Source of the DNA: an uncultured Candidatus Saccharibacteria bacterium
GTDB taxonomy: Bacteria; Patescibacteriota; Minisyncoccia; Phycocordibacterales; CAIRYW01
DNA length: 64,000 nt
Direction of reading: 5' to 3'
Assembly: GCA_964446625.1 (NCBI GenBank)
Contig: CAYUPH010000004.1
Coordinates: forward strand, 7,838 to 71,837
Part shown: positions 37,363-64,000 of the stretch, piece after piece
Numbering within the stretch: the first letter of the stretch is position 1
How the letters are laid out: each line of letters opens with the position of its first letter
Program-made: the position numbers and the translations under genes
Notes under the pieces: generated by a model
Told to the model about the DNA's origin: nothing
The model's database searches: none
Seen by the model: the letters and a program-made list of their open reading frames with translations, nothing else

Positions 37363-37737
37363 TTATTGATTCCTATTCTTTTGAATAATATCAAATATTT
37401 CCAAATCTATAATTTTCAATTTTTGTCCCGGAAAAATCCAAAACCCTTTACATAACAAAACAGTAAATTCGTTTACTTTTTTTACATCTGCAAGTAGTAA
37501 AGATGAAGGTGTTTTTAAAGATTTAAGATCTGACTCTTTATAGAAAATTGAAAATGGTAAATTAGCAACAGCTGGCATATATCTATTTATGACTACCACC
37601 CTCTTATTTGTTACCACCACATCTTGACCAGAAAGTTTTTTATAACTGAGAAACGCGGTCTTTGTTACGACAACATCTTCGATTCTTTTTAGCTCAACTT
37701 CTCCAGGCAGAAGCTCAAAACTCAATATATTAGACAT
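37363..37737 (-). CDS. bacterial PH-domain (bPH_2/YdbT-like) protein
   Basis: 124 aa; GEVELKRIEDVVVTKTAFL...GQDVVVTNKRVVVINRY fits the bPH_2 pattern (…LTNkRl…). Confidence 0.45.
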   Translation of the reverse strand: MSNILSFELLPGEVELKRIEDVVVTKTAFLSYKKLSGQDVVVTNKRVVVINRYMPAVANLPFSIFYKESDLKSLKTPSSLLLADVKKVNEFTVLLCKGFWIFPGQKLKIIDLEIFDIIQKNRNQ

Positions 37738-37774
37738 AAATAAATACTACCGCAGTTTGCTCTTTTGTTCAATT

Positions 37775-37840
37775 ATGCGAATGAAGAGAATCTTTCCGAG
37801 GGCTCAAAACTTTTTCGTCAAAAAGTTTTAGCCTCTGCAC
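37775..37840. repeat. copy A of tRNA-Asp-flank module: degenerate tRNA-Asp 3'-end (atgcgaatgaagagaatc) + conserved 10-nt inverted-repeat element AAAACTTTTT-cgtc-AAAAAGTTTT
   Basis: Near-identical to 38774..38840 and 38476..38530. Confidence 0.7.
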
Positions 37841-37843
37841 TAG

Positions 37844-38368
37844 TTATATTTCTTTTAAAATATTCTCCAACTGAAATTTAACATCTCTTGACGAATCTAT
37901 AGTATAGTGTGGCTTTTCGATTTTTTCGTATATTTTTTTTATTTTAAGATGAGCATTCCACCCCACACCGTTCCCTTTTCTAAACCTTTCTTGTACACGC
38001 TTTTTTAAAATATCGTCTGGGCAAAATACATAAATAATGAAAAATTTAGCTCCATGCTTTTTTGCGGACTGAATCACTACTTCTCGATGCACTCTCTTTG
38101 AAAAAGCACCATCAATTATGATATTTTGTCCTGAAGCTAATGCTAAATCGGTCAACAATGAAAAAACGTTATAACAAATATTTAATTCTTTAATTGTCGG
38201 AGGTTTATCTTTACCAACAAAAGAAGGGTTTTTCAAAATATTTTTTAACGTTGAATCAACAGAAAAAACTTTTGCACCGATTTTATTACCAAATAAATTG
38301 GCGGTAGTAGTTTTTCCTGCCCCCACCTGTCCACAAAATATAAATAATGATTTTTTAATTTTTGTCAT
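37844..38368 (-). CDS. P-loop NTPase, AAA_33/zeta-toxin/polynucleotide-kinase-like small kinase
   Basis: 174 aa; Walker A FCGQVGAGKTTT, Walker B-like IIIDGAF; size and motifs like zeta-toxin/gluconate-kinase-type kinases. Confidence 0.6.
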   Translation of the reverse strand: MTKIKKSLFIFCGQVGAGKTTTANLFGNKIGAKVFSVDSTLKNILKNPSFVGKDKPPTIKELNICYNVFSLLTDLALASGQNIIIDGAFSKRVHREVVIQSAKKHGAKFFIIYVFCPDDILKKRVQERFRKGNGVGWNAHLKIKKIYEKIEKPHYTIDSSRDVKFQLENILKEI

Positions 38369-38475
38369 ATCATTAATAATTATAGCTTTAATTATTTTAT
38401 TAAACTACATTCTCATAATAAACAGAAGCACTAATCCAAAACACCTTTTCTATATACCTCACTTAATTCTATATG

Positions 38476-38790
38476 TGTAAAAGAACATTTCCCGCGACTC
38501 AAAACTTTTTCGTCAAAAAGTTTTAGCCTCCGCACCGCCTCACTTCCGAGCTTTGCTAAGCTCTAACTTTACATTAAAAGTGAAGGGGCTTGGTCACTCT
38601 CGCGGATATTTTTTTCGTCCTGTGGACTCAAAAATATCTCGCTCCCTCGACCCCCATTCGTCGTCTCTGATTTTTCGTTCCTCAAAATCAGGCTTCGCGA
38701 CGACTCAGTTCAAGTCCCTCATCGCGGTAAAACAAAAGTCACCGACTCCTTTCGGAGCCGGTTCCTTTGTTTTATGCGCGAGTGAAGGGA
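38476..38790. repeat. copy B (~310 bp) of tandem module, ending in an exact 15-nt copy of the tRNA-Asp 3' end (GCGCGAGTGAAGGGA, 38776..38790)
   Basis: Shares cccgcgactcaaaactttttcgtcaaaaagttttagcctc(c/t)gcac...cctcacttccgagctttgctaagctctaacttt...aaagtgaaggggcttg with copy C. Confidence 0.75.
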
Positions 38791-39049
38791 ATCTTTCCCG
38801 CGACTCAAAACTTTTTCGTCAAAAAGTTTTAGCCTCTGCACAGCCTCACTTCCGAGCTTTGCTAAGCTCTAACTTTGGCATCAAAAGTGAAGGGGCTTGA
38901 TCCTTACAGGATCAGTACACCTTTTGGTGATTTTGTTTCGTTCCTCACAAAATCAGCTCAAAAGGTTTTCAAGTCCCTTACGCAAGTGCCCCGCACTTGC
39001 TCACTCGCACAAAATAAAAAGCCGCCAAATTTGGCGGCTTTTTATTTTG
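38791..39049. repeat. copy C of tandem module, directly abutting the genuine tRNA-Asp gene; contains an inverted tRNA-like T-arm fragment (ggttttcaagtccctta) and a terminator hairpin
   Basis: Direct tandem repeat of copy B over its first ~110 nt; a diverged homolog lies at 59517..59800. Confidence 0.75.
39014..39047 (-). terminator. terminator of the tRNA-Met/tRNA-Asp transcript (GCCGCC-aaattt-GGCGGC + T-run)
   Basis: aaaagccgccaaatttggcggctttttatttt immediately 3' of tRNA-Asp (minus sense). Confidence 0.75.
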
Positions 39050-51807: not shown

Positions 51808-52177
51808 TCTTAAGAACTTCTTTTAATACTTCAGATGGAATTGTTGTCGCTTTTACAATATATCCGTTTATACCAAACGCTTTTGCTCTATCAATATCGC
51901 TCTGCTGTCCTTGGTTTGAAAGAATTACCACAACCGCTTCAGGAGCAAGTTTGTCTTGTCTAATTTTTTCAAGGAGTTCCACACCATCCATCCCAGGCAT
52001 AACCACGTCCAGAATAATAATGTCTGGCTTCTCTCCTGCCTTTAATTTTTCGTACGCTTCTCTTGGATCGCTTACACCAGTCACCTGCATTCCTTCCTTT
52101 GTAAATTTCATGGTGTACATGTTAAGAAGGAACTTGTCGTCGTCTACTATGAAGATACTGTATTTTTTGTTTTCCAT
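51785..52177 (-). CDS. single-domain response regulator receiver embedded in pilus operon
   Basis: 130 aa; SIFIVDDD...IIILDVVMPGMDGVELL...VVVILSN...GINGYIVKA. Confidence 0.85.
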   Translation of the reverse strand: MENKKYSIFIVDDDKFLLNMYTMKFTKEGMQVTGVSDPREAYEKLKAGEKPDIIILDVVMPGMDGVELLEKIRQDKLAPEAVVVILSNQGQQSDIDRAKAFGINGYIVKATTIPSEVLKEVLKIAAEAGK

Positions 52178-52208
52178 ATTTTAATTATACAACTTTTTAA
52201 TTTGCAAT

Positions 52209-53930
52209 CTATGCCAAACTGTTTATTTCTTCAAAAGGAATCTCATGTTTAAGCGCTTTAATGATTGCATCTTCTTTCATAGTTGTCATACCGTCTTTTC
52301 GAACAATCTTCCAAATCTCATCTCCACTTGGTTTAGTGAGGATAACCCGCTCAAGGTCTTTTGTCGTTTTAAATACTTCAAATACTCCCATTCGTCCCCT
52401 TGTTCCCTTTGGACACTCTGCCGAAGAAACCGCCTGAAGGACAGTGTCCGCGCTTGGAACTTCTTTTTTGTATTCATCAGGAAGATCAGCAAACTGCTTA
52501 TCTATCATTGCCTTTAGGCTTCCCTCAACAGGCATTGGATTTCCTTCCCCACAAATTTTTGATACAAGTCTCTGCGCCATTGTAAGCACAAGAGTTGGCG
52601 CAATTAGGTAAGGATCAACTCCCATGTCTACAAGTCGAGGAATCACACCTACTGCATCGTTGGTGTGGATTGTTGAAAGTACAAGGTGACCCGTAAGGGC
52701 TGCTTGAACCGCAAGCTGAGCCGTTTCTTTGTCTCGAATCTCTCCCACCATGATCACATCAGGGTCCTGACGAAGTGTGGTACGAAGTCCGTTTGCAAAT
52801 GTGTACCCAATCTCTGGGTGCACTTGTGACTGGCTAATTCCTTCCACGTTGTACTCAACCGGGTCTTCTAGTGAAAGAACATTCATTGATTCTTTATCGA
52901 GCTCAGCCAACATCGCATAGAGCGTTGTTGTTTTTCCAGAACCCGTTGGTCCAGAAATAAGAATCATACCGTAAGGCTTTTTGATTGCCTCACGAATGAG
53001 TGCGAGGTCGCGTGGACGAAGATCAAGAGAATCTAGATTCTTTACTCCTTTTGTTTGATCAAGAATTCGCATTACCACCTTTTCTCCGTAGTATGTAGGA
53101 AAAGTAGACACACGAAAATCAACTTTCTTTCCTTCGATTTTTGCAGAAAATCTTCCGTCTTGAGGTTTTCTTTTTTCGTCGAGTTTCATGTTGCAAAGAA
53201 TTTTGATACGAGCAACAACAGCATTCAACACTTTGATTGGAAGTATGAGTGAAGTGTGAAGCGCTCCATCAAGTCGAAATCGAACACGAACCTTCTCCGC
53301 CATCGGTTCAATATGTACGTCCGACGCCTCTCCTTCAATAGCGTACCGAAGAATTGTTGCAACAATTTTTGTTACCGGCGCATCTTCGATAATGTTTGTC
53401 TGATTGATTTTAGTTGAAATATCTTCAACCGCAGTGTTTGCGAGAGCCTGCTCTTCTTCTGTAAGGTCTGACTCAAGGTCGCCAAGTGCTTTTGTTACCT
53501 CAACAGAGAGTCCTTTGTATGACTCCAGTACTTTTCCAAAATCCTCTTCTGTAATTACAAAAAGTTTGTAAGGAATATTGTTCTTCGAAGAGATAAAAGT
53601 CATTGCATTACGCGCGTCTAGGTTTTCTGGGTCAACAATTCCCACATGAAGTACACCGTCCTCTAGTGAGAGTGGAACTACTTTGTAGTAGACAGCCGAC
53701 TCCTCTGGAACATAATTTAGTATCTCGTTTGGAACAGTCTTAGTTCCTAGAGAGATTGATGGTATTCCTGTTCCAGCAGATTTTGCCTCAAGAATATCTT
53801 TACCCGAAATCCCTCTTCGAACAAGAATAGTTTCAAGACTCTCTCCTGATTCACTCGCCTCAGCAATAATCGAATCAGCATCGACTCGTGGTATGAGGTC
53901 TTTTTCAATTAGTGAGTCGAGAAGTCTCAT
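52209..53930 (-). CDS. pilB: type IV pilus assembly ATPase PilB (GspE family with N-terminal T2SSE_N domain)
   Basis: 573 aa; Walker A GPTGSGKTTT, tetracysteine-like region reduced, His box. Confidence 0.9.
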   Translation of the reverse strand: MRLLDSLIEKDLIPRVDADSIIAEASESGESLETILVRRGISGKDILEAKSAGTGIPSISLGTKTVPNEILNYVPEESAVYYKVVPLSLEDGVLHVGIVDPENLDARNAMTFISSKNNIPYKLFVITEEDFGKVLESYKGLSVEVTKALGDLESDLTEEEQALANTAVEDISTKINQTNIIEDAPVTKIVATILRYAIEGEASDVHIEPMAEKVRVRFRLDGALHTSLILPIKVLNAVVARIKILCNMKLDEKRKPQDGRFSAKIEGKKVDFRVSTFPTYYGEKVVMRILDQTKGVKNLDSLDLRPRDLALIREAIKKPYGMILISGPTGSGKTTTLYAMLAELDKESMNVLSLEDPVEYNVEGISQSQVHPEIGYTFANGLRTTLRQDPDVIMVGEIRDKETAQLAVQAALTGHLVLSTIHTNDAVGVIPRLVDMGVDPYLIAPTLVLTMAQRLVSKICGEGNPMPVEGSLKAMIDKQFADLPDEYKKEVPSADTVLQAVSSAECPKGTRGRMGVFEVFKTTKDLERVILTKPSGDEIWKIVRKDGMTTMKEDAIIKALKHEIPFEEINSLA

Positions 53931-53932
53931 GG

Positions 53933-54367
53933 TTATTTTGTAGTTGTTTTAGGTGCAGGTGTTTGAGACGTAGGCGAAGCGGTTTGAGAACCTGGAGCAG
54001 GAACTTCCTCTTCAAAACCAAGCTGTTCTACACTTGAACCAACAGAACCCTGCAGATCTCCTCCGAAAGGATTGTCTCGTCCTTTGTCTTCTTTTTCAAT
54101 TTTTTGTGAAAAGTCCACAAGACTTCGAAACACAGGGTCACTAAAAGAAAACTTGTCTTTAAAGTTTACACGTCTAAGGAGTGCAACAAGTCCAACCAAG
54201 TCTCGATATTCGTTTTTTACTCCAACCCCGGTAGAAGCGCCTGAAGTTGAAACCTTCTTCAAGCTTTCATCAGTATTTTCTGCAGGTTTCTTTAGGAACA
54301 TAGAATAACCTACAAAAGCGATGATGAGGGCAAAGAGTATAATGAGTGGAATTTTAAGTTTTTGCAT
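53933..54367 (-). CDS. membrane-anchored pilus-cluster protein, possible PilP analogue
   Basis: 144 aa; N-terminal TM, Pro/Thr-rich C-terminus; positioned where pilP normally sits. Confidence 0.45.
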   Translation of the reverse strand: MQKLKIPLIILFALIIAFVGYSMFLKKPAENTDESLKKVSTSGASTGVGVKNEYRDLVGLVALLRRVNFKDKFSFSDPVFRSLVDFSQKIEKEDKGRDNPFGGDLQGSVGSSVEQLGFEEEVPAPGSQTASPTSQTPAPKTTTK

Positions 54368-54376
54368 GTCTCTAGT

Positions 54377-54916
54377 TTATTGCTTTAACCAATATGTTTT
54401 GATTGTAACAGAAAAATCGTATGAATTATTTTGTGCTGCCTTAAATGAAAGATTTGTGACATCAACAATTCGAAGGCTCTGTTCTGCTTCTTTGAGGAAC
54501 TCAACAAAGCTTCCATAAGAAGATGTCACCTGGAAAGAAACAAGAATAGAACCGTATGCTTTCTTTGTAGGGTTTATGTTCTTGCTCGCTGTACTACTCT
54601 CTTCATCAATTTTAATTTTCTTGAGCTTCATACCGTGCTTGCTTGCAATACCGTTTAAATCAAGAACAAGCTGTACATTGTCCACATGATCTGGAAGAAG
54701 TTTTTCTAGAGAATCAAGATCATCTGGCTTAAAAGTTTTAAAATCATCCGCAAGATCAGATCGCCTTGCAAGAACATCTTGGGACTGTGCAAGTGTGTCT
54801 TGTAAACTTTTAACCTCCTCTTTCTGAGTTTTGATTTCTTGGTATTTTGGGTTAATAGCAAAGTAAAAGAGGCCTCCTGACACTACTATTAAAATGATTG
54901 CAACTACTCCTTTCAT
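54377..54916 (-). CDS. pilO: PilO-like type IV pilus assembly protein
   Basis: 179 aa; N-terminal TM + coiled coil + ferredoxin-like ectodomain arrangement. Confidence 0.7.
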   Translation of the reverse strand: MKGVVAIILIVVSGGLFYFAINPKYQEIKTQKEEVKSLQDTLAQSQDVLARRSDLADDFKTFKPDDLDSLEKLLPDHVDNVQLVLDLNGIASKHGMKLKKIKIDEESSTASKNINPTKKAYGSILVSFQVTSSYGSFVEFLKEAEQSLRIVDVTNLSFKAAQNNSYDFSVTIKTYWLKQ

Positions 54917-54917
54917 A

Positions 54918-55658
54918 TTATCTTGTTTGATTTACGTTTATATTTCCACTTTGTGTTCCCGTACTCGGTGCAACTGCACCTGCGCTTTGAGGTGAATCTT
55001 CTGATTCTGGAATGACAGGAGCTGTTTGCCCAGTCTGAGTTGGTGCAGTTTGAATATCTGAGGCCGACCTTTTTTGAGACTTGTAGTACACAAAGTCAGG
55101 TTTTATTTTTGTTGAAAAAGTGAAAACAACATTTCCTTTATCATTTAGATCAAGATTAGAAAAGATAGGATCAATCAGTCGTCGATTTTGTCCAAAAACA
55201 ACAGACTGGTACGCAACTGCGTTGTAACCCGACGCAATACCAGACATGCTAACGTTTGCTCCTGCTGGATCAAAACTGTACTCGTACTTGAAGTCATTGA
55301 AACGTACGCTCTTTAGAGTTTCTCTTTGAAGAAAGTCGAGGAATGCAGAGGCTGCTGTGTGGTTTTGTAGAAGCTCACTTGCAGTATCCATTCGAAGATC
55401 AAGCCTTGCATAGCTCCTGATTGTATCTTCTTCAAATGCTTTTATGTTTTTGTCGATATTTACTTTTATGTCTGCAATTTGCTTGTCTATAAAAGCTTTG
55501 TAACCAATGCACCCTGCAAAAATAACAAGTGTAAAGATAAAAATCAAAATACAAAGAGACAACAAAAGTCCCGCTGGCGAGCGCCTTGGTCTCGCAGGTC
55601 GAACGTCCGCATCTATTCCAGCTTTGGGTATAAAAGATGTTTGAAACTTCGTCTCCAT
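54918..55658 (-). CDS. pilN: PilN-like type IV pilus assembly protein
   Basis: 246 aa; short cytoplasmic N-tail, TM AGLLLSLCILIFIFTLVIFAG, ectodomain. Confidence 0.65.
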   Translation of the reverse strand: METKFQTSFIPKAGIDADVRPARPRRSPAGLLLSLCILIFIFTLVIFAGCIGYKAFIDKQIADIKVNIDKNIKAFEEDTIRSYARLDLRMDTASELLQNHTAASAFLDFLQRETLKSVRFNDFKYEYSFDPAGANVSMSGIASGYNAVAYQSVVFGQNRRLIDPIFSNLDLNDKGNVVFTFSTKIKPDFVYYKSQKRSASDIQTAPTQTGQTAPVIPESEDSPQSAGAVAPSTGTQSGNINVNQTR

Positions 55659-55779
55659 CCTTAAAATAATTTATCTAAAGTGTGCTAAAACTCACATTCT
55701 GCGACAAAGTCGCATACTTCTACTCTATTTTACAACAAACCACACGAAAAAGAATAGTGGAGAACTTTTTGTAGTCTAA

Positions 55780-56901
55780 TTAATCAAACTCCTGAAGCTT
55801 TCGGAGTGCAATTCCTACCGCCACTGCAAAATCGAGACCTGATTCTTTTAGAATCGGACGAAGGAACGCAGGAGTTTCCACTTTTGAAAAAGGGTCACCA
55901 ATAACAACTTCACCAGGAAGGCGTGCTTTTGCAAGATCAACAAAGCCTTTCATTCCTGCTCCCCCTCCAGTTAAGATTACTTTTCCAATATTTTTGCCGT
56001 ATTTCTTTTCGTACGCAAGAAGAAAACTCTCTGCTTCAGAAAATATAAAATCAATCGGTAGCGAAATAATATCAAGCACAGCTTTCTCTTCATCACTTCC
56101 ATCTCCTTTTAGATTTCGTTTTATTTTTTCTGCCTTTTCTGGTGGAACCTGGAGCCCTCCTGCAATTGCCAGTGTAAAATCCTGAGACCCCTTGTTTATG
56201 ACATGAGATTTTCGAATAATTCCTCTATCTACTATATATAGTTTTGCAACAGCGGCTCCTAGGTCCATTATCATGACGGGGTGAGCTTCTCTATCGACAA
56301 GTGAGCGGATTGCCGCAAACATTTCAATTTCAAAAAAACTTGTATCCACCATACTTCCCCGCACAACAGACGAATAGTTTTGAAGAACTTCGTTGTGAAT
56401 AGACACAACAAGGACCTCTGTCTTCTCTGGGCCTGCTGCCGCAATTCTTTTTTGAAGTGGCACTTCAAAATCAAAAGACTTGTCTTCTTCTTTTGGAATT
56501 ACCCACCAATCAAGAGCTACCTCACTAATTGGCACCGGAATATATTTTCGAGCTTCAATAGGAATCATCTCCCTGAGCTTTTCTTCGGAAAGTGCTGGCA
56601 TTTCAATAAGAGTCACAAGACTTGAACGCATTGGTATCGCAACACCAGCATGTGAAGTTGTCACATTTGCTTCTTTTATTAAATCTTTTACTACTTCTGC
56701 AATTTTTTCGGGGGGAAGGTTTGTTGCTTGTCCGATTGTAAGTCCAGCGTATGGACCAAGCGCAAGACTTCCGTAAGTTTTGAGAATCGCTTTCCCTTTT
56801 ACTTTTGCAAGCTGAACAACCTTAATCGCCGAAGAGCCGATATCAAGTCCTATGACATTTGTATCTGACTTTGAAAAAAAATTTTTAAAGGGATTGTCCA
56901 T
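55780..56901 (-). CDS. pilM: PilM (actin-like ATPase of the pilus inner-membrane platform)
   Basis: 373 aa; VIGLDIGSSAIKVVQL, ...GGGAGMKGF: actin/HSP70-fold landmarks. Confidence 0.85.
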   Translation of the reverse strand: MDNPFKNFFSKSDTNVIGLDIGSSAIKVVQLAKVKGKAILKTYGSLALGPYAGLTIGQATNLPPEKIAEVVKDLIKEANVTTSHAGVAIPMRSSLVTLIEMPALSEEKLREMIPIEARKYIPVPISEVALDWWVIPKEEDKSFDFEVPLQKRIAAAGPEKTEVLVVSIHNEVLQNYSSVVRGSMVDTSFFEIEMFAAIRSLVDREAHPVMIMDLGAAVAKLYIVDRGIIRKSHVINKGSQDFTLAIAGGLQVPPEKAEKIKRNLKGDGSDEEKAVLDIISLPIDFIFSEAESFLLAYEKKYGKNIGKVILTGGGAGMKGFVDLAKARLPGEVVIGDPFSKVETPAFLRPILKESGLDFAVAVGIALRKLQEFD

Positions 56902-56939
56902 ACTCGAAAACGTTTTGGCTATAGTATATCATATAAGGC

Positions 56940-57596
56940 ATGATAAAAGGTATTGTTTCTCGTAGTGTAAGGAAGTTTATTTTTGAATTTTTCTCTCTTT
57001 TCGAAGAAAATGCGCGCGGAGCCCATGGAACAGATGTTTTACTGAACGTTTTGTGGGAAAAATACATAAGACAAATGCAAATTGCAGAAAACATATTTGC
57101 ATTCCTCCCCTACGAAGAAGGAAAAGTGCGGAGCGCAATCCTCCAGATTAAAACAACAGGAAACCCGCTCATTATAGAAAATATTGTGAAAGAAATCTGG
57201 AGCGCATTTCTCCCTGAAGTGTCTCGTCTTACTGAGCTTTATGGTTTTTCTCCTAGCATTGTTCCAATTCCTCTTTACATAGGAAAACAAAAAGAAAAAG
57301 GATTTAATCATGCCGAGAAAATTGCCGAGGCTTTTTCTAATGTTTCCCACTACCCCCTTCTTACACATGTAGTTACAAAAAACCGAGATACAAAGAGACA
57401 ACATGACTTGTCCAAAAAAGAGCGCGAGTGGAATTTAAAAGACGCATTTTCTGTCACAGAAAATGCAAACATAGAAGGAAAGGATTTTCTACTTATTGAT
57501 GATGTGACCACAACTGGCGAAACAATGCTCGAGGTACTCTACACACTCCGCCGCGCTGGCGCGCGGCTTGTCGTCGGGGTTGCGCTCGCGCATTAG
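56940..57596 (+). CDS. comFC: ComF-family protein (phosphoribosyltransferase domain)
   Basis: 218 aa; PRTase motif DFLLIDDVTTTGETM; divergent from pilM. Confidence 0.7.
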   Translation: MIKGIVSRSVRKFIFEFFSLFEENARGAHGTDVLLNVLWEKYIRQMQIAENIFAFLPYEEGKVRSAILQIKTTGNPLIIENIVKEIWSAFLPEVSRLTELYGFSPSIVPIPLYIGKQKEKGFNHAEKIAEAFSNVSHYPLLTHVVTKNRDTKRQHDLSKKEREWNLKDAFSVTENANIEGKDFLLIDDVTTTGETMLEVLYTLRRAGARLVVGVALAH

Positions 57597-57620
57597 GTAA
57601 TTGCTCTAAAGCAAGGGGTT

Positions 57621-58235
57621 TTATTCCCCTTTTCTTGCAATCACCTGAATCCAATTAACTCGTCCCGAAGTAGTCACACTTTTCCAAACCACTTCTATTC
57701 CTGCTTTTTCTAAATAATTTTCCATTTCCGGCAAAGTAAAATAACTAAAAAATCTTTCATACTCATAACCATAATCATTTTCTTTTTTTACCTCTTCCGC
57801 GCTTTGCCGTTCGCGTATTTCCTTAACTGCAATATACAAAAACCCCTCGCGAGCAACTTTGTCTTTAAGTTTTTGAATTACTTCCCCAATTCTATTTTTA
57901 GGAATATGCAGGAGAACCGCTTGTGCAAACACACCATCAAAAGTTTTTTCTATTTGTGGGAGATTGTAAATATCCAAGACTTCAAAGTCCGCGCTAAGCA
58001 CTTCTTCCTTTGCAATTTGAATCATGCTTTCAGAAAAGTCGATTCCCGCTACTTTATAGCCCTTATCTAAAATGTATTTACTTTTTGTACCCTCTCCACA
58101 CCCAACATCCAAAATCTCCGAACCTTTTTCCAAAAGAGAAAGAAACTTTTCTGTTCCCTCAATCCACCATGTATCTTTCTGGTGGTCTCGGTGCCAATCC
58201 TTTGCGATTTTGTTGTAGGTATCCCTTAGGTTCAT
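57621..58235 (-). CDS. class I SAM-dependent methyltransferase
   Basis: 204 aa; ILDVGCGEGTKS motif I. Confidence 0.8.
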   Translation of the reverse strand: MNLRDTYNKIAKDWHRDHQKDTWWIEGTEKFLSLLEKGSEILDVGCGEGTKSKYILDKGYKVAGIDFSESMIQIAKEEVLSADFEVLDIYNLPQIEKTFDGVFAQAVLLHIPKNRIGEVIQKLKDKVAREGFLYIAVKEIRERQSAEEVKKENDYGYEYERFFSYFTLPEMENYLEKAGIEVVWKSVTTSGRVNWIQVIARKGE

Positions 58236-58302
58236 AGATTAACTTTTTATATTCACTCTCCCTTCTGATACTTTTAAAGATGCATACCCTAGAACACTAA
58301 CT

Positions 58303-58946: not shown

Positions 58947-59462
58947 TTAGTCACTTTCTTGTGCTCGCAAAACCTTCTCTATATTACTAAAATCATTAAA
59001 AGATTTTGGCCCCTTTTCTCCCTTCTCAATATCTGCAATGTAAAAAATATCATCTTCAAGATAATTTGTTCTTATTTCTTTTCCAACACCATTGTAAAGA
59101 CACTGAATGCGGTGTTTTTCCGAAACTGATACATGTGTATCAGAAGAAGCACTCGCCATATCCCAATCTTCCTTTTTTATTTCTTTACACTCTCCTTTAT
59201 AAGTACCAAGATCAAACTTATATGCAAGAATTCTGTTACCAAAAAAACAATAAGAATTAGTGTGTAACACTATTCTTGTATAAGGTACTTCTAAATTATT
59301 ACCTGCTTCAATCCCAGGGTCTACAAACTTTTCGAAAGTGATACTATCAGACGGATCATCAGTTTGATCATCTTTACAACCCGATATGGTCCGAGGAATT
59401 TTATAAATTAGGATTCCCGCTGTAAGTACAAGGATTGCAATAGAAATAATAACTTTTTTCAT
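58947..59462 (-). CDS. secreted/lipoprotein-like hypothetical protein
   Basis: 171 aa; signal peptide with lipobox-like ...TISGC; 4 Cys. Confidence 0.55.
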   Translation of the reverse strand: MKKVIISIAILVLTAGILIYKIPRTISGCKDDQTDDPSDSITFEKFVDPGIEAGNNLEVPYTRIVLHTNSYCFFGNRILAYKFDLGTYKGECKEIKKEDWDMASASSDTHVSVSEKHRIQCLYNGVGKEIRTNYLEDDIFYIADIEKGEKGPKSFNDFSNIEKVLRAQESD

Positions 59463-59516
59463 AAGTTTGATTATACAATATTTTGTTCAAATTTAAACAT
59501 AAAGACCTCAACGTAG

Positions 59517-59800
59517 GGAGACGGAGGGATATTCGACCCTTACAGGGTCAGTACCCCGATTGGAGATTTTATTTCCTTTCAGTCATAAAATCTGCTCAAT
59601 CGGGCTTCGAATCCCAAATAATTCGGTCAAGAACATTTTTGTCGTCAGCCACTCCAAAAATTTCTCGACCCTGGATTTTCACCCACTTTTGCTAAAGCGG
59701 GTCCCGAAAATCCTTTCGAATCCCCCACGCAAGTGCGTTTAGCACTTGCTCGTCTCTCGCAAAATCAAAACCCGCTTTCGCGGGTTGGATTTTGCGGGCT
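59517..59800. repeat. diverged third copy of the tRNA-Asp-flank module, abutting the GC-rich island
   Basis: ccttacagggtcagtaccccgattggagattttatttcc...aaaatctgctcaa...acgcaagtgcgtttagcacttgctcgtctctcgcaaaatcaaaacccgctttcgcggg aligns with 38907..39040 (ccttacaggatcagtacaccttttggtgattttgtttcg...aaaatcagctcaa...acgcaagtgccccgcacttgctcactcgcacaaaataaaaagccgccaaatttggcgg); contains tRNA T-arm-like bits (ggcttcgaatccc, cctttcgaatccccc). Confidence 0.6.
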
Positions 59801-60010
59801 ACTCGGGTATGGTACCCACACTTCCAAGCAACATAAGGGTATTTTAGCGCGTTTTCCTAAAAGGATTTAGGGTTTGTGGGTCGGGGTCACTTTTTTGAGA
59901 ATGACACACTGGTCTGGACTTCTCGCCGTTTCCGTTCTCTGTTATCGGTTTCCCCAAATGCCAACAAATGCCAATTTTCGTGACGTAATTTTTTTAGATA
60001 TAATAGGAGC

Positions 60011-60724
60011 ATGACAGTCGGCGAATTGATATACCAACAAATGAAGGATGGGTACATTCCCACAGCCCCACTCTCGGATGGGTTTATTTCGGCTGTGACG
60101 AGGAGCGCCGAGGAATCCCAGAAACTCGTAGAGACGATGCGGATACCGATGGAGAATATGCAGAGGACGCTTGAAAGAATACGCCCAAGCCTTGAGGCGA
60201 TGAATAACATAATCCCGAGGAGCCTAGCAATAGCCCCATCATTTATTCCTTCCCTATACGAAGAGGAGGACGAAGATCTCATCATCCCCGCACTCAATGG
60301 ATCGGTTCAGGAGTATGTCGTGGAGGATGCGGATGTCACCCCAGCAAGGGTTGAGCGAGCGATTTCCTCCTACCTTCTTCCTGGCAACGCCCAGTGGGGT
60401 TCGCTCATGTTTCATTTTCTCGATGGACACACTGTCCGTGTCTCGCACCCAGACATGCCCACAAAGAAATTCACCTATACGGAAATGGGTTTTGTGAACG
60501 AGAAAACGATGCTACCGGACAGAAAATGGGAAATGCTTCGAGCGATTGCTGATCGCGGCGGCTCACTCACCAAAGACAGCTGGGATTATCGCTTCCACCG
60601 CAACATAAAGTACGAACTCAACGAGGGTCTCAAGCGATTCTTCGGCATGACCGAGAACCCAATTCCTCGATACACTCGTCGGGACGGATACATGACACTC
60701 TTTGTCATTCGCGGAGACCGATAG
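60011..60724 (+). CDS. hypothetical protein, first gene of the GC-rich island
   Basis: 237 aa; preceded by TATAAT and AGGAG RBS 6 nt upstream; tandem 10-mers AAATGCCAAC/AAATGCCAAT at 59956..59975 upstream. Confidence 0.6.
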   Translation: MTVGELIYQQMKDGYIPTAPLSDGFISAVTRSAEESQKLVETMRIPMENMQRTLERIRPSLEAMNNIIPRSLAIAPSFIPSLYEEEDEDLIIPALNGSVQEYVVEDADVTPARVERAISSYLLPGNAQWGSLMFHFLDGHTVRVSHPDMPTKKFTYTEMGFVNEKTMLPDRKWEMLRAIADRGGSLTKDSWDYRFHRNIKYELNEGLKRFFGMTENPIPRYTRRDGYMTLFVIRGDR

Positions 60725-60901
60725 TCATCCTAGAAAAAATGACGATGCAAAAGACCTTTCACCGCTTTGGTAAAAGGTCTTTTGTTTGAGCGCTGATTTT
60801 GTCATTCATCGTCATTCGTGCGCGGGAAATTGTCATTTCATCATCGGATGACGAATAGGGGTAGAAGAGCATTACTAAGACCCTCTTCTGAAATTAACCC
60901 C

Positions 60902-62197
60902 ATGGCAAAAGAAAAGATCATATGGTCGCCCGCCACTCGCAAGCTCGGCGACCTGATCAAGAACGGATACAATCCGCGAAAGTTAAGCGAGAACGAACGC
61001 AGGGACTTGGAGAAGTCCGTGCAGGAATTCGGCACGGTCGTCCCGATTGTCCTCAATATCGGCACAAGAGCCAACACCATCATCGGCGGCGAACAGCGCG
61101 TGAAGGTGTATGCAGACCTCGGCATCGAGGAGATCGAGTGTATGGTGCCGTCGAGAGAGCTGTCGCTCGAGGAGGAGCGCGAACTCAACCTTCGCCTCAA
61201 TAAGAATACTGGCTCGTGGGATGAGGAACTCCTCAAGGACTTCGACATGAACGTGCTTCTTGATGTCGGCTTCGGCGACGAAGAGCTTCAGAATCTCTTT
61301 GATGACGTTGACGTGGTCGACGACGACTTTGATGTCGAGAAGGCACTCAAGGAGACGATCACTCCTAAAGTTAAGACTGGTGAGATCTGGGAACTCGGTA
61401 AGCACCGATTGTTTGTCGGTGACTCGACCGATGGCGAGTTGGTACAGAAGCTCATGGCTGGCGACCTCGCCGACATCGTGTACTGCGACCCGCCATACAA
61501 CATCGGACTCGACTACTCAAAAGGTGTCGGCAACAAAGAAAAGTACCAAGGATCGTACTCCGGCAAGGATGACTCGAAGAAGGACAGCGAATACATGGAC
61601 TTCCTCAACAAGAGCATGGAAGTGGCGAAGAGCGTCTCGAAGAAAGATGCCCACCTCTTCTACTGGTGCGACTCCTCATACATCGGGATGGTGCAGAGTC
61701 TGTACGCCAAGCACAAGGTGAACGCGAAGCGCGTCTGCCTATGGCTCAAGAATAATCAGAACCCCACCCCGAAGATTGCCTTCAACAAGATGTACGAGCC
61801 GTGCGTGTACGGAACGATCGGCAAGCCGTACCTGAACACCGGCATGAACAACGCCAACGAAATCCTCAATCAGGAGGTCACCACCGGCAATCAGGTGCAT
61901 GACGAGATATTCGACATGATCGACATCTGGATCGAGAAGCGCGACAACGCCAAGGACTACCGCCATCCAACGCAGAAGCCCGTGACCCTGAACGAGAAGC
62001 CGTTCAAGCGATGCAGTGCGCCGCTCCACATTATCTTCAGCGGATTTGCCGGAAGCGGAAGTGACCTCATTGCGGCAGAGGAACTTGGTCGTGTGTGGCG
62101 TGGGGTCGAGAAGGATCTCATCTTCGCAACCATCGTGATCGACCGATGGGAGAAGTTTACCAACCTAAAGGCCAAGAAAATCCATGAAAGCAACTAA
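60902..62197 (+). CDS. ParB/Srx-like nuclease-domain - DNA methyltransferase (N6_N4_Mtase, beta-class) fusion protein
   Basis: N-terminus KIIWSPATRKLGDLIKNGYNPRKLSENERRDLEKSVQEFGTVVPIVLN = ParB N-domain; motif IV CDPPYNIG; motif I IFSGFAGSGSDLIAAEELGR near C-terminus. Alternative upstream starts (GTG 60818, ATG 60848) exist. Confidence 0.8.
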   Translation: MAKEKIIWSPATRKLGDLIKNGYNPRKLSENERRDLEKSVQEFGTVVPIVLNIGTRANTIIGGEQRVKVYADLGIEEIECMVPSRELSLEEERELNLRLNKNTGSWDEELLKDFDMNVLLDVGFGDEELQNLFDDVDVVDDDFDVEKALKETITPKVKTGEIWELGKHRLFVGDSTDGELVQKLMAGDLADIVYCDPPYNIGLDYSKGVGNKEKYQGSYSGKDDSKKDSEYMDFLNKSMEVAKSVSKKDAHLFYWCDSSYIGMVQSLYAKHKVNAKRVCLWLKNNQNPTPKIAFNKMYEPCVYGTIGKPYLNTGMNNANEILNQEVTTGNQVHDEIFDMIDIWIEKRDNAKDYRHPTQKPVTLNEKPFKRCSAPLHIIFSGFAGSGSDLIAAEELGRVWRGVEKDLIFATIVIDRWEKFTNLKAKKIHESN

Positions 62198-62933
62198 GGG
62201 AGAAATCTTCAAAGTCGGCGACCACATCATCGCTTGCGGCGACTCGCTCGACAAAGCATTTGTCGGCAAGGTCATCGGCAAGCACAAGGTGCGGGCAGTC
62301 GTCACCGACCCGCCCTACGGAGTCGCCTATGTCGAGAACAAGCAGGGGCTGGTGAAAATCAGTACGGACGAGACGAAAGCTATCGCAAACGATCATCTTC
62401 AGAGCGAGGAGGAATACGAGGACTTCACGCGCGGGTATCTTGGCGCGGTCATTCCGTATCTCACGGAATATAACGCCGTCTACATCTTCAATGCCGACCC
62501 AATGTTCCCAAGCCTTCGCTCAGGCATGAAAGCCGCAGGCTTCTACTACAGCCAGATGATTATCTGGATCAAGAACCAGCCCGTGATGAGCCGCAAGGAT
62601 TACCTCTCCATGTATGAACTCATCGCATATGGCTGGTTCGGCAAGCACAAGATGGAGCGGTCGAAGGCGCGGAATGTCATCTACCATCCTCGCCCTACCA
62701 AATCGAAACTGCATCCGACACAGAAGCCGGTCGGTTTGTTGCGGAAGCTCATCCCGAACTCCACGAAGGTCGGCGACATTGTGTATGACCCCTTCCTCGG
62801 AAGCGGTTCAACCGCCGTTGCGTGTGAGCACTTAGGTCGAAAGTGCATCGGCATCGAGCTTGATTCGGCGTATGTCGAAAGCGCGATCAAGCGTCTTGAA
62901 AAACTCACCGGCGAAAAGGCGGTGAAGGTATGA
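62184..62933 (+). CDS. DNA methyltransferase (beta-class N4-C/N6-A, DPPY family)
   Basis: 249 aa; motif IV VVTDPPYGV, motif I YDPFLGSGSTAVACEHLGRKCIGIELD; overlaps the upstream gene by 14 nt. Confidence 0.85.
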   Translation: MKATKGEIFKVGDHIIACGDSLDKAFVGKVIGKHKVRAVVTDPPYGVAYVENKQGLVKISTDETKAIANDHLQSEEEYEDFTRGYLGAVIPYLTEYNAVYIFNADPMFPSLRSGMKAAGFYYSQMIIWIKNQPVMSRKDYLSMYELIAYGWFGKHKMERSKARNVIYHPRPTKSKLHPTQKPVGLLRKLIPNSTKVGDIVYDPFLGSGSTAVACEHLGRKCIGIELDSAYVESAIKRLEKLTGEKAVKV

Positions 62934-62937
62934 GTGT

Positions 62938-63312
62938 ATGCAGGGAGATGACTTTTCCAAGGATCCGTACAAAAAGCAGGTCTACGAAACCTACGCTCTT
63001 TGGAAGTCCCTCCCTTCATTTCTCAAGGGACAGCCGAGAGTCGCGCTTGAGAAGTTCGGGATTGAAGAGGAAACGATGTTCGAGTTGTTGGCGATAAAGA
63101 CACAGCTCGACTTCTCACGAAAGTACGAGGTCGATACCGGCACGCTCTCTGACTGGAACAAGCGTCTTGAAAAAGACGGACTGGTCAAAGACTTGAACGC
63201 ATGGGCGCGCAAGCTCACGCCAAACGTCATGTTCGCCCTCTATAAGAACATCATCAAGAGCGGTCGAGCGCATGAAGTACGAGCATGGTTTGAGATCGTA
63301 GAGAATTACTAA
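62938..63312 (+). CDS. hypothetical protein (island)
   Basis: 124-aa ORF, 4 nt after preceding stop. Confidence 0.5.
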   Translation: MQGDDFSKDPYKKQVYETYALWKSLPSFLKGQPRVALEKFGIEEETMFELLAIKTQLDFSRKYEVDTGTLSDWNKRLEKDGLVKDLNAWARKLTPNVMFALYKNIIKSGRAHEVRAWFEIVENY

Positions 63313-63313
63313 T

Positions 63314-63508
63314 ATGGAAACGATTAAACTAGAAGAGATTAATACCATTCTCTCCGACACTCTCCGCAAGGTGGTGTCGCGGGAGATATCGCTCAAGCAG
63401 GCATCCATGATCGCCAAGCTTGCCTCGGCATTGTCGCGCAACATTGCCAACACCGAGCTGAAGGAACGGGTCGAGTTCCTCGAGAGTGTGCTCCAAAAGA
63501 CGAGATAA
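63314..63508 (+). CDS. small hypothetical protein (island)
   Basis: 64-aa ORF starting 1 nt after preceding stop. Confidence 0.45.
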   Translation: METIKLEEINTILSDTLRKVVSREISLKQASMIAKLASALSRNIANTELKERVEFLESVLQKTR

Positions 63509-63513
63509 CCTAT

Positions 63514-64000
63514 ATGAGAAACCTCAGCAACATCATCAAGCGTTCCAACCTCACCCCGTTCGAGCGGGTGGCGACATTGGTGCGTCACAACACTCATAAG
63601 CAGAAGACCGGCAAGGATTTGCTGACTGAAGCTCAGCTCCACAACCTCACTCAAGGATGGTCAGCCCAGAGAGGAGAAGCGAACGAGTACAACCGGTATC
63701 TTGAGATCGCTCGCTTAGAGAATTCAATGAGCATTGATGCGACGACTTTCTCGTATAAGTCTGAGCTGTCCGTAGTGCGCCAGCAGCGGGTACTCGCGTA
63801 CAGTCTTGAGAACATAAAGAAAGACAAGAAGTTCCATATTGAGATGATGATGGAGGGACTGACCGAGGAGGAGTGCCTCCGGTTTGCGCTCGCTCATACA
63901 TACCTTGATTACCGAGACACGCTTCATTTCTTCACGTTCGAGAACTTGCCGCTTGAAGTGCGGCAGGACTTGGCGCTTCTCGATGACTCGGTTGGTTTCA
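63514..64000 (+). CDS. hypothetical protein, 3'-partial (continues past window end)
   Basis: ATG 63514; open through position 64000 (MRNLSNIIKRSNLTPFERVATLVRHNTHKQKTGKDLLTEAQL...). Confidence 0.55.
   Translation, partial: MRNLSNIIKRSNLTPFERVATLVRHNTHKQKTGKDLLTEAQLHNLTQGWSAQRGEANEYNRYLEIARLENSMSIDATTFSYKSELSVVRQQRVLAYSLENIKKDKKFHIEMMMEGLTEEECLRFALAHTYLDYRDTLHFFTFENLPLEVRQDLALLDDSVGF

What the first reader, a model, noticed from the sequence alone, without database searches (positions are those of the whole stretch)
59517..64000. GC-rich (55-58%) phage-like island with a ParB-methyltransferase fusion and a second orphan methyltransferase, entered through a tRNA-flank homolog
At about 59.88 kb the composition jumps from about 38% to over 55% GC and gene orientation flips to plus with overlapping genes. 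The island encodes a ParB-nuclease-domain-DPPY-methyltransferase fusion and a second beta-class methyltransferase, both common phage/plasmid anti-restriction or epigenetic cargo, plus four hypothetical genes. Just upstream (59517..59800) is a diverged copy of the sequence that precedes tRNA-Asp at 38.9-39.05 kb, including tRNA T-arm-like fragments. This suggests the element used a tRNA-Asp-like attachment site. Tandem 10-mers AAATGCCAAC/AAATGCCAAT (59956..59975) and three GTCATTC repeats (60801..60840) look like operator or iteron sites. The integrase and the far end lie outside the window.
Basis: partly seen in the sequence, partly recalled or inferred. Interest (0 to 1): 0.55.

Follow-up and report, generated by a model that had tools for sequence, protein, structure and literature searches.

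The report
Mobile island inserted at tRNA-Ser
The GC-rich end of this window is the first 4.2 kb of a 12-14 kb mobile DNA island, one of a large family in ultra-small (CPR/Patescibacteria) bacteria that a serine recombinase inserts exactly at the 3' end of a serine-tRNA gene. It carries two phage-type DNA methyltransferases plus several proteins of unknown function.

Summary
GC steps from 0.40 to 0.52 (not 55-58%), genes switch to the + strand, and a ParB-MTase fusion and a second beta-class MTase are present. The boundary is not at about 59.88 kb. It is the tetranucleotide GCGG at 59794-59797.

A related metagenome contig (L107) has the same flank at 98% identity, running straight into an intact tRNA-Ser(GCT). 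This is an empty site. Identical contigs extending past the window show a DGR or metal-resistance cargo and a large serine recombinase, but no detectable phage structural gene.

Relatives of the recombinase occur at 558 or more places in GTDB species genomes, nearly all Patescibacteria. In 57 of 58 loci the first downstream tRNA is tRNA-Ser with its 3' end facing the recombinase. The same element (89.5% nt identity) also sits in a 63% GC host.

The "tRNA-Asp flank homolog" (59517-59793) is real but is host DNA. It is one copy of a structured unit found downstream of many CPR tRNA genes, not the att site.

The verdict is a real integrated element. The tRNA-linked idea is right in spirit, but the tRNA is wrong and "phage-like" is unsupported. 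How the element transfers is unknown.

The parts
59517..59793 (.). Host DNA: the 'X unit', a structured tRNA-3'-flank unit that was the trailer of tRNA-Ser(GCT) before insertion. It is homologous to 38884-39048 next to tRNA-Asp. It is not part of the island.
   Evidence: It is 98% identical to L107 233-398, where it abuts an intact tRNA-Ser(gct). The covariance model R1 scores it at 99.6 bits. Covariation was measured.
59616..59724 (.). Nested 109-nt extra segment inside the X unit: 99 nt plus a 10-nt duplication of TTCGAATCCC. It is absent from the empty-site contig.
   Evidence: The two L107 alignment blocks overlap by 10 nt and skip this stretch. It resembles the B-type units of L041 and L094.
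59769..59786 (-). Intrinsic terminator of the displaced tRNA-Ser gene (AACCCGCGAAAGCGGGTT followed by TTGATTTT).
   Evidence: Terminator scan. It holds the same position in L107, directly after the tRNA-Ser.
59794..59797 (.). GCGG, the core shared by attL and attR. The crossover lies inside it. It corresponds to tRNA-Ser positions 71-74.
   Evidence: Window ..GGATTTTGCGG|GCTACTCGGG against L107 ..GGATTTTGCGG|AGACGGAGGG. GCGG is the only shared core in nine attL/attR pairs.
59798..59905 (+). Left terminal region of the element (P' arm): GCTACTCGGGTATGGTACCCAC...TAAGGGTATTTTAGC.
   Evidence: Homology with the same element in a 63% GC host starts at the GCGG core, L002 7609 = window 59792. The consensus is conserved at 16 left ends.
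59954..59975 (+). Tandem direct 10-mers CAAATGCCAAC AAATGCCAAT upstream of the first gene. Candidate binding site for the p237 winged-helix domain.
   Evidence: Invariant in window, L094, L016 and L022 while the flanks diverge.
60011..60724 (+). p237, the first gene of the element. It has an N-terminal long helix, a disordered linker and a confident C-terminal domain with weak OmpR/PhoB-type winged-helix resemblance.
60748..60784 (+). Hairpin (16-nt arms) followed by a T-run. Terminator-like site after p237.
   Evidence: Inverted repeat I1, 94% complementary. Sequence read.
60826..60858 (+). Conserved operator-like block AAATTGTCATTTCATCATCGGATGACGAATA (GTCAT/ATGAC inverted repeat) upstream of the ParB-MTase gene.
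   Evidence: Invariant in four elements. Inverted repeats I3, I5 and I6.
60902..62197 (+). ParB-N-domain::beta-class N6A/N4C DNA methyltransferase fusion (431 aa).
   Evidence: Pfam PF02195 and PF01555. phrog_498 at E=6.5e-85. 340 phage records carry full-length homologs at about 30% identity.
62184..62933 (+). Second beta-class DNA methyltransferase (249 aa), overlapping the first by 14 nt. No restriction enzyme gene nearby.
   Evidence: PF01555 at 120 bits. Nearest solved relatives are CcrM, DpnA, MboIIA and N4C MTases.
62938..63312 (+). p124, a conserved core gene of unknown function.
   Evidence: No family hit. It co-occurs with the MTases and p496 in at least 11 related loci.
63314..63508 (+). 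p64, a conserved core gene of unknown function.
63514..64000 (+). N-terminal 162 codons of p496 (496 aa in the full contigs). This is the signature protein of the element core, with no known fold relative.

Best explanation
Window 59798-64000 is the left end of a 12-14 kb integrative element of a Patescibacteria (CPR) bacterium.

How it inserts. A large serine recombinase (443 aa), encoded about 7.7 kb beyond the window end, recombined an element site (attP) with the host site. The host site lies between a tRNA-Ser(GCT) gene and its terminator. The crossover is inside GCGG, which covers the last two acceptor bases, the discriminator and the next base. The tRNA therefore stays intact at the far (right) end. 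Its former trailer, the structured 'X unit' at 59517-59793, is left at the near (left) end.

What it carries. The core is p237, ParB-MTase, MTase, p124, p64 and p496. Variable cargo follows: a DGR in one version and a P-type ATPase set in another.

Inferred functions, not shown:
- The two orphan MTases most likely methylate the element's own DNA (and the host's), so that it survives restriction on entering new hosts.
- p237 is probably a winged-helix regulator that acts on the conserved tandem 10-mers.

Shown: the insertion site, the family-wide target, and presence in unrelated hosts. Unknown: how the element leaves one cell and enters another.
For: Empty site: L107 has the same X unit (97.9% and 98.8% identity) fused directly to an intact tRNA-Ser(gct). 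It diverges from the window exactly after GCGG.

The same junction is present in four independent assemblies.

Identical contigs continue into p496, two minus-strand genes, cargo, and a Resolvase+Recombinase+Zn_ribbon_recom protein.

At least 558 relatives of the recombinase occur in GTDB genomes, nearly all titled Patescibacteria lineages.

In 57 of 58 loci that have a tRNA within 7 kb downstream of the recombinase, the first is a minus-strand tRNA-Ser.

Nine loci with both ends show: attL = host terminator + GCGG + conserved P' arm, and attR = conserved P arm + GCGG + tRNA-Ser.

The element recurs at 89.5% nt identity over 7 kb in a 63% GC host. Homology starts at the GCGG core (L002 7609 = window 59792).

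The core module recurs with the recombinase in many loci.

ParB-fold::N6_N4 MTase fusions are known and are enriched in prophages (PMC12704722).
Against: The right end of this particular element could not be read. L002 stops at 20750, L102 stops at 12686, and one search found nothing.

No excised circle or attP junction was seen.

The left flank of L107 differs from the window, so L107 is a relative, not the same strain.

In one version (L001/L101) the recombinase gene is split into 161-aa and 269-aa ORFs, so that copy may be immobile. The window ends before the two versions diverge, so it is not known which one it is.

No replication, packaging or conjugation gene was recognised, so autonomy is unproven.

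MTase targets and the anti-restriction role are inferred from the family only.
Confidence: 0.85

Rival explanations
1. It is a prophage, or the integrated genome of a new small virus or a satellite. The unrecognised core proteins (p496, p124, p64, p237, the membrane protein p225) would be virion or packaging components.
For: ParB-MTase fusions, DGRs and serine integrases are typical phage cargo. p496 is a confident fold with no known relative. Distant p496 homologs sit on 7,448-bp circular contigs with a primase and a tyrosine integrase, so this protein travels with small autonomous replicons.
Against: No capsid, portal, terminase, tail or lysis family was found in Pfam, PHROGs or NCBIfam. There was no BFVD fold match. 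IMG/VR holds no close p496 relative. The smallest recombinase-bearing core segment seen (left end to recombinase stop in L094) is 8.8 kb with 10 genes, and that island extends further right.
Confidence: 0.2
2. One reading: the element entered through a tRNA-Asp-like attachment site, and 59517-59800 is the att remnant created by this insertion.
For: Real similarity to the tRNA-Asp flank. One family member out of 58 (L048) does sit at a tRNA-Asp.
Against: The same 59517-59793 sequence exists next to an intact tRNA-Ser in the empty site, so it predates the insertion. Its tRNA-derived ends match tRNA-Ser(gct), not tRNA-Asp. The window's tRNA-Asp 3' end starts GCGCGAG and lacks the GCGG core.
Confidence: 0.03
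3. The GC step is an assembly chimera joining two organisms.
For: The composition change is abrupt. Several assemblies break between 59561 and 59770.
Against: The junction is spanned identically in ERZ27282891, ERZ27283041, ERZ17987696 and JGI 3300015606. The breaks lie in the repeated X unit, left of the junction. The junction falls at a family-wide conserved att core.
Confidence: 0.02

Closest known systems
Integrative elements and phages that use large serine recombinases (for example Bxb1 or phiC31 integrases, and SCCmec CcrAB, which inserts at the 3' end of rlmH; from general knowledge)
   Same: The recombinase has the three-domain architecture (Resolvase, Recombinase, Zn_ribbon_recom) with best NCBIfam similarity to CcrB. 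The shared core is very short, with no long direct repeats. Insertion is at the 3' edge of a conserved gene and leaves it intact.
   Different: The target is the last bases of a tRNA gene, a niche normally used by tyrosine integrases (PMC4383910 abstract). The hosts are Patescibacteria. The accessory core genes have no known relatives.
tRNA-gene genomic islands of the Islander type (tyrosine integrase, displaced tRNA 3' fragment)
   Same: It sits at a tRNA gene, the tRNA remains functional, and the integrase gene lies toward the tRNA-proximal end.
   Different: It uses a serine rather than a tyrosine recombinase. The crossover is at positions 71-74, so no tRNA fragment is duplicated by this element. 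The tRNA-like fragment at 59517-59540 belongs to the older X unit.
ParB-CTPase-fold::N6_N4 methyltransferase fusions of prophages (PMC12704722)
   Same: Same domain pair in the same order, in a mobile-element context, with no partner restriction enzyme.
   Different: Only about 30% identical to the phage examples. Followed by a second, overlapping stand-alone MTase. NTP binding is untested.
Diversity-generating retroelements (bAvd + RT + TR/VR)
   Same: In the L002 version, all 17 TR/VR mismatches fall at TR adenines. bAvd and RT are present.
   Different: It lies outside the window and is optional cargo, absent from the L001 and L094 versions.
CIMEs and MITE-like gene-less derivatives of integrative elements (for the X units only; from general knowledge)
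   Same: Gene-less units of 100-250 nt, bounded by a displaced copy of the target's 3' end. They are stackable, and polymorphic between near-identical loci.
   Different: Each X unit also carries an inverted copy of its own tRNA's 3' end and a set of covarying hairpins. No cognate recombinase was identified.

Membership tests
Large-serine-recombinase integrative element | Encodes a recombinase with Resolvase, Recombinase and Zn_ribbon_recom domains | tested here: met
   L002 18231-19562, on contigs identical to the window: PF00239, PF07508 and PF13408; phrog_95 integrase at E=3e-64. It lies outside the window.
Large-serine-recombinase integrative element | Site-specific insertion with only a short shared core between attL and attR, and an identifiable empty attB | tested here: met
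   GCGG core in nine attL/attR pairs. Empty site L107 diverges from the window exactly after GCGG.
Large-serine-recombinase integrative element | Excised circular form or attP, and a recombination directionality factor | not tested
   No circular contig or attP junction was found in the contigs retrieved. A conserved 111-aa gene just upstream of the recombinase is only a candidate RDF.
Temperate phage (prophage) | Capsid, portal, terminase and tail genes | tested here: not met
   Absent by Pfam, PHROGs and NCBIfam for all ORFs of the L002 version. The p496 fold is unlike any PDB or BFVD entry. Divergent unrecognisable structural genes cannot be excluded.
Integrative conjugative or mobilisable element | Relaxase, coupling protein, type IV secretion genes or oriT | tested here: not met
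   No such Pfam family in any ORF of L002, L001 or L094.
tRNA-integrating island of the tyrosine-integrase type | Tyrosine integrase, plus a displaced tRNA 3' fragment generated by the insertion | tested here: not met
   The recombinase is of the serine type. The fragment at 59517-59540 pre-exists in the empty site.
Beta-class N6A/N4C DNA methyltransferase (PF01555) | Catalytic DPPY motif N-terminal to the SAM-binding FxGxG motif, with a Pfam hit above the gathering score | tested here: met
   78.2 and 120.3 bits against a 26.7 cut-off. The motifs VYCDPPY...FAGSGS and VVTDPPY...FLGSGS are read from the translations. The methylated base and target sequence cannot be determined with these tools.
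ParB-CTPase-fold fusion protein | ParB N-terminal domain, with nucleotide binding through the arginine patch | tested here: inconclusive
   PF02195 reaches only 26.4 bits against a 26.3 cut-off, but phrog_620 (ParB-like) gives E=5e-25. The motif reads GGEQRVK rather than GERRxRA. NTP binding is not testable here.
Diversity-generating retroelement | RT + Avd + TR/VR pair with adenine-specific mismatches | tested here: met
   17 of 17 mismatches are at TR adenines. bAvd E=1.7e-16 and RVT_1 E=1e-26. Present only in the L002, L003 and L004 versions, outside the window.

The most novel reading that the evidence does not exclude
The island belongs to a phylum-wide, so far undescribed lineage of Patescibacteria mobile elements with three features. 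A serine recombinase is retargeted to the last bases of tRNA-Ser. A conserved core (p237, p124, p64, p496, with no known folds) may encode a new kind of transfer or virion machinery. The elements cross between hosts of 39% and 63% GC.

Alongside it, the 'X units' would be a new class of gene-less, structured mini-elements. They insert into tRNA T-loops and into each other, and they copy the target's 3' end in both orientations.
Probability: 0.35. Interest if true: 0.75.

Novelty: new variant of a known kind. Interest (0 to 1): 0.55.

Why it matters
CPR/Patescibacteria have tiny genomes, no cultured genetics and few characterised mobile elements.

This work defines a recombinase family with a 4-nt core, a conserved attP, and a target present in every bacterium (tRNA-Ser). 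At least 558 natural variants are available. That makes it a ready candidate genetic tool for these organisms and for the serine-integrase toolbox.

The same element at about 90% identity in hosts of 39% and 63% GC is direct evidence for recent gene flow across distant CPR lineages. The cargo moved includes DGRs, metal-resistance genes and defence candidates.

The orphan core proteins and the tRNA-flank X units are concrete, testable unknowns.

Tried and rejected
1. Rfam at gathering and at E<=10, and ARAGORN, on 59300-60100. No tRNA, tmRNA or other family was found, so the tmRNA and intron-tRNA ideas for the X unit were dropped.

2. My first model was that 59517-59540 is the displaced tRNA end made by this element and that 59540-59790 is element DNA. 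I rejected it when homology with the L094 copy was found to start only at the GCGG core, and when the empty site L107 was found to contain the whole X unit.

3. Extending the window's own contig to its right end failed. The p236 homolog search did not return the exact protein. A 32-mer scan of metagenomes found nothing. The p64 look-up added only 575 nt.

4. Searching for long exact direct repeats between the element ends found few: L034 15 nt, L086 17 nt and L089 20 nt. These turned out to be X-unit copies, not the element's att.

5. p496 as terminase, portal or capsid: no support. No IMG/VR relatives.

6. p124 against the p122 of the 7.4-kb circles: no similarity.

7. Strand of the X unit: both strands fold equally well, z about -7, so this is not informative.

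8. Literature searches found no description of this element family or of the X units. Absence from the held library does not prove novelty.
Full report
**1. The observation**

Base composition changes sharply near the end of the window. Positions 1-59500 are 39.9% GC and 59792-64000 are 51.6% GC. In 2-kb bins the last two bins are 0.517 and 0.522, while no other bin exceeds 0.426.

From 60011 onward all convincing ORFs are on the + strand and tightly packed. One pair overlaps by 14 nt.

- The 431-aa protein (60902-62197) combines a ParB N-terminal domain with an N6_N4 methyltransferase domain.
- The 249-aa protein (62184-62933) is a stand-alone N6_N4 methyltransferase.
- Both match phage family phrog_498.
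- Both have DPPY before FxGxG, which is the beta-class order.
- The four other ORFs have no Pfam, PHROG or NCBIfam match. They are p237, p124, p64 and the start of a 496-aa protein.

The similarity between 59517-59800 and the sequence beside tRNA-Asp is real: 76.5% over 81 nt and 71.6% over 95 nt.

**2. Not a chimera; what lies beyond the window**

Exact-protein look-ups found the same DNA on contigs from several assemblies. The host/island junction is identical in ERZ27282891, ERZ27283041, ERZ17987696 and JGI 3300015606.

Several other assemblies break between 59561 and 59770. This stretch lies inside the repeated sequence left of the junction, not at the junction itself.

Downstream of the window the contigs carry:
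- the rest of p496;
- two minus-strand genes, p267 and the membrane protein p225;
- variable cargo;
- a 443-aa large serine recombinase with Resolvase, Recombinase and Zn_ribbon_recom domains.

One version (L002, L003, L004) has a diversity-generating retroelement. All 17 TR/VR mismatches fall at template adenines. Another version (L001) instead has a P-type ATPase, DUF305 and related genes, and its recombinase gene is split. The window ends before the two versions diverge.

No capsid, portal, terminase, tail, lysis, relaxase or replication family was detected.

**3. A large family with a fixed target**

The recombinase has at least 558 confirmed relatives (68-95% identity) in GTDB species genomes. 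Nearly all of the 80 loci listed have titles naming Patescibacteria lineages.

Of those 80 loci, 58 have a tRNA within 7 kb downstream of the recombinase. In 57 of them the first tRNA is a tRNA-Ser on the opposite strand, with its 3' end facing the recombinase. The modal gap is 112-126 nt. The one exception (L048) is a tRNA-Asp whose 3' end also begins GCGG.

The gene module ParB-MTase, MTase, p124, p64, p496 recurs upstream of the recombinase in many loci.

Sixteen loci share a conserved left terminus: nnGCGG(G/T)G....GGGT(T/A)(A/T)(A/G)GTACCCA...TAAGGGTATT.TAGC. It is always preceded by a host-specific terminator hairpin.

For nine loci with both ends available, the structure is as follows:
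- attL is host terminator + GCGG + P' arm.
- attR is P arm (..ATGGGTTGACTCCGATACTTAGTTGTCTTG) + GCGG + tRNA-Ser 3' end.
- Bases immediately left of GCGG differ between attL and attR in the same locus. The crossover must therefore lie within GCGG, which covers tRNA positions 71-74.

**4. Proof for this locus: an empty site**

From this model I predicted the uninterrupted host junction and scanned JGI metagenomes for CCCGCTTTCGCGGGTTGGATTTTGCGGAG. One contig matched (L107, 4,488 nt, 38.6% GC).

L107 positions 233-402 match window 59519-59615 at 97.9% and window 59715-59797 at 98.8%. The sequence then continues directly into an intact tRNA-Ser(gct) at 399-486.

- Window: ..GGATTTTGCGG|GCTACTCGGG
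- L107: ..GGATTTTGCGG|AGACGGAGGGATTCGAACCC

The island therefore starts at 59798 and the crossover is within 59794-59797. The tRNA-Ser(gct) genes next to the closest relatives of the element (L014, L015, L016) have the same 3' end.

L107 differs from the window to the left of the X unit, so it comes from a related organism rather than the same strain.

**5. The same element in a very different host**

A 97%-identical p496 led to contigs L094 and L095. There the element is 89.5% identical in DNA over 6,977 nt and 85.6% identical over 1,760 nt through the recombinase. It lacks the DGR. Homology begins at the GCGG core.

The flanking host DNA there is 63% GC and encodes LepA, MurJ, TPR, DUF192 and SWIB proteins. 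That junction is present in two independent assemblies.

The element itself is about 51% GC in hosts of 39%, 46% and 63% GC. Other family members range from 31% to 46% GC. The GC excess seen in the window is therefore a property of this sub-lineage meeting a low-GC host. It is not a property of the whole family.

**6. What the "tRNA-Asp flank homolog" is**

Window 59517-59793 is host DNA, which I call an X unit. Its plan is:
- a copy of the neighbouring tRNA's 3' end, in the same orientation as the tRNA and ending in the T-loop;
- two covarying hairpins, the first with a conserved TTACA loop;
- an inverted copy of the T-loop/T-stem, then a hairpin (ACGCAAGTG..CACTTGC), then an inverted copy of the acceptor strand;
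- CAAAAT, then a terminator, then the tRNA itself.

A covariance model built from three copies found further copies beside tRNA-Lys, tRNA-Arg (twice), tRNA-Val and tRNA-Ser genes in other CPR genomes. Each copy carries direct and inverted copies of its own neighbour's 3' end.

On 12 distinct sequences, 88% of cells pair, and 36 of 39 pairs show changes on both sides. No shuffle out of 500 reached the observed values, and the slid controls pair at only 32-50%. One caveat applies: the alignment was fitted to the model.

The window's copy contains an extra 109 nt (59616-59724). This is 99 nt plus a 10-nt duplication of TTCGAATCCC, and L107 lacks it. It resembles a second unit type seen in L041 and L094.

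Downstream of tRNA-Asp there are two stacked displaced 3' ends, at 38881 and 38776.

They predate the island and are not its att site. What they are remains unexplained. The options are gene-less mini-elements that target T-loops, remnants of other integrases' elements, or a structured RNA. There is no Rfam or ARAGORN match. Both strands fold equally well.

**7. Genes inside the window**

*ParB-MTase and MTase.* The ParB::N6_N4 MTase architecture is known and is enriched in prophages, with a proposed anti-defence role (PMC12704722). In the phage collection, 340 records have homologs at about 30% identity, and 210 of them cover at least 80% of the protein. The second MTase is nearest to CcrM, DpnA, MboIIA and N4C enzymes among solved structures. 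Neither MTase has a restriction partner nearby. Their targets cannot be assigned from sequence.

*Operator-like block.* A second invariant block with a GTCAT/ATGAC dyad (60826-60858) precedes the ParB-MTase gene.

*p496.* It folds confidently (pLDDT 89.3, pTM 0.81). It matches only generic helical bundles in the PDB and nothing in BFVD. Its family has 264 representatives among 1.84 billion proteins. Distant members sit on 7,448-bp circular contigs with a DnaG-like primase and a tyrosine integrase.

*p267.* It matches a PADLOC defence candidate, PDC-S48.

**8. Mechanism**

Shown:
- site-specific insertion at GCGG, at the 3' boundary of tRNA-Ser;
- association with a large serine recombinase;
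- a conserved attP;
- presence in unrelated hosts.

Inferred from the known behaviour of large serine recombinases:
- integration needs only the recombinase and two sites of about 50 bp;
- excision needs a directionality factor. The conserved 111-aa gene upstream of the recombinase is a candidate.

Inferred from the family:
- the MTases pre-methylate or maintain methylation of the element, so that it escapes restriction in new hosts.

Unknown:
- replication and cell-to-cell transfer. The options are a helper phage, an unrecognised virion, or uptake by the competence pili that CPR bacteria carry.

**9. Novelty**

The parts are known kinds: a serine-recombinase element, ParB-MTase, a DGR. The combination is not described in the literature I could search. 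That combination is a serine recombinase aimed at the last bases of tRNA-Ser, an orphan protein core, and a phylum-wide spread in Patescibacteria. I rate it a new variant of a known kind, of moderate interest. The X units are the stranger side-finding.

Noticed in passing
window 38776-39048 and 59517-59793; L107 1-99 and 229-398; L050 15282-15427; L039 12467-12601 and 20632-20762; L089 19664-19815; L041 12324-12414; L053 2614-2753: 'X units': gene-less structured units of about 130-280 nt lying immediately 3' of tRNA genes (Asp, Ser, Lys, Arg, Val) in CPR genomes. Each carries a direct and an inverted copy of its own tRNA's 3' end, plus covarying hairpins and a terminator. No Rfam family matches and no explanation was found.
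   Followed up: partly
window 59616-59724: An extra 109 nt inside the X unit (99 nt plus a 10-nt duplication of TTCGAATCCC), absent from the 98%-identical copy in L107. This looks like a recent insertion of a second mini-unit type into a T-loop-like sequence.
   Followed up: partly
window 37363-39048: Downstream of tRNA-Asp there are two stacked displaced copies of its 3' end (38881, 38776). Further copies of the 38789-38902 segment lie at 38483-38595 (93%) and 37761-37840 (85%), flanking two small genes (174 aa and 124 aa). This may be an accretion zone of small insertions.
   Followed up: partly
L002 14774-17665 (window coordinate = L002 + 52183, so outside the window): A complete DGR: a 302-aa target gene with a C-terminal VR, TR, bAvd and RT. 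All 17 VR/TR mismatches fall at TR adenines. It is present in only some versions of the element.
   Followed up: yes
L094 1-6000 and 6240-14998: The same element at 89.5% nt identity is inserted behind an X unit in a host of 63% GC. The region right of the recombinase is also low-GC cargo (C39 peptidase, MarR, RND efflux genes). The host was not identified.
   Followed up: partly
L097, L098, L099 (each 7,448 nt): Three contigs of identical length with permuted gene order, hence circular. They carry a distant p496 homolog (573 aa), a DnaG-like primase, PC4, a tyrosine integrase, and MerR and HTH_17 regulators. They appear to be a small replicon sharing the orphan core protein.
   Followed up: no
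L001/L101 13558-19717: An alternative version of the island in the same host context carries a P-type ATPase, DUF305 and a beta-propeller/DUF411 gene instead of the DGR. Its recombinase gene is split into 161-aa and 269-aa ORFs, so it may be an inactivated copy.
   Followed up: no
L002 12818-13621 (minus strand): The 267-aa cargo protein matches the PADLOC candidate defence family PDC-S48 (E=1.6e-12). Its neighbour is a three-TM membrane protein.
   Followed up: no
L048 1587-1771: This is the only locus of 58 where the recombinase sits next to tRNA-Asp rather than tRNA-Ser. That tRNA-Asp also begins GCGGA at its 3' end, so the 4-nt core is kept.
   Followed up: yes
window 52000-58300: The host flank encodes type IV pilus/competence-type genes (PilM, PilO, T2SSE ATPases, a ComF-like phosphoribosyltransferase). 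The 58.3-59.5 kb stretch just left of the X unit is unusually AT-rich (32-34% GC), with small unannotated ORFs.
   Followed up: no
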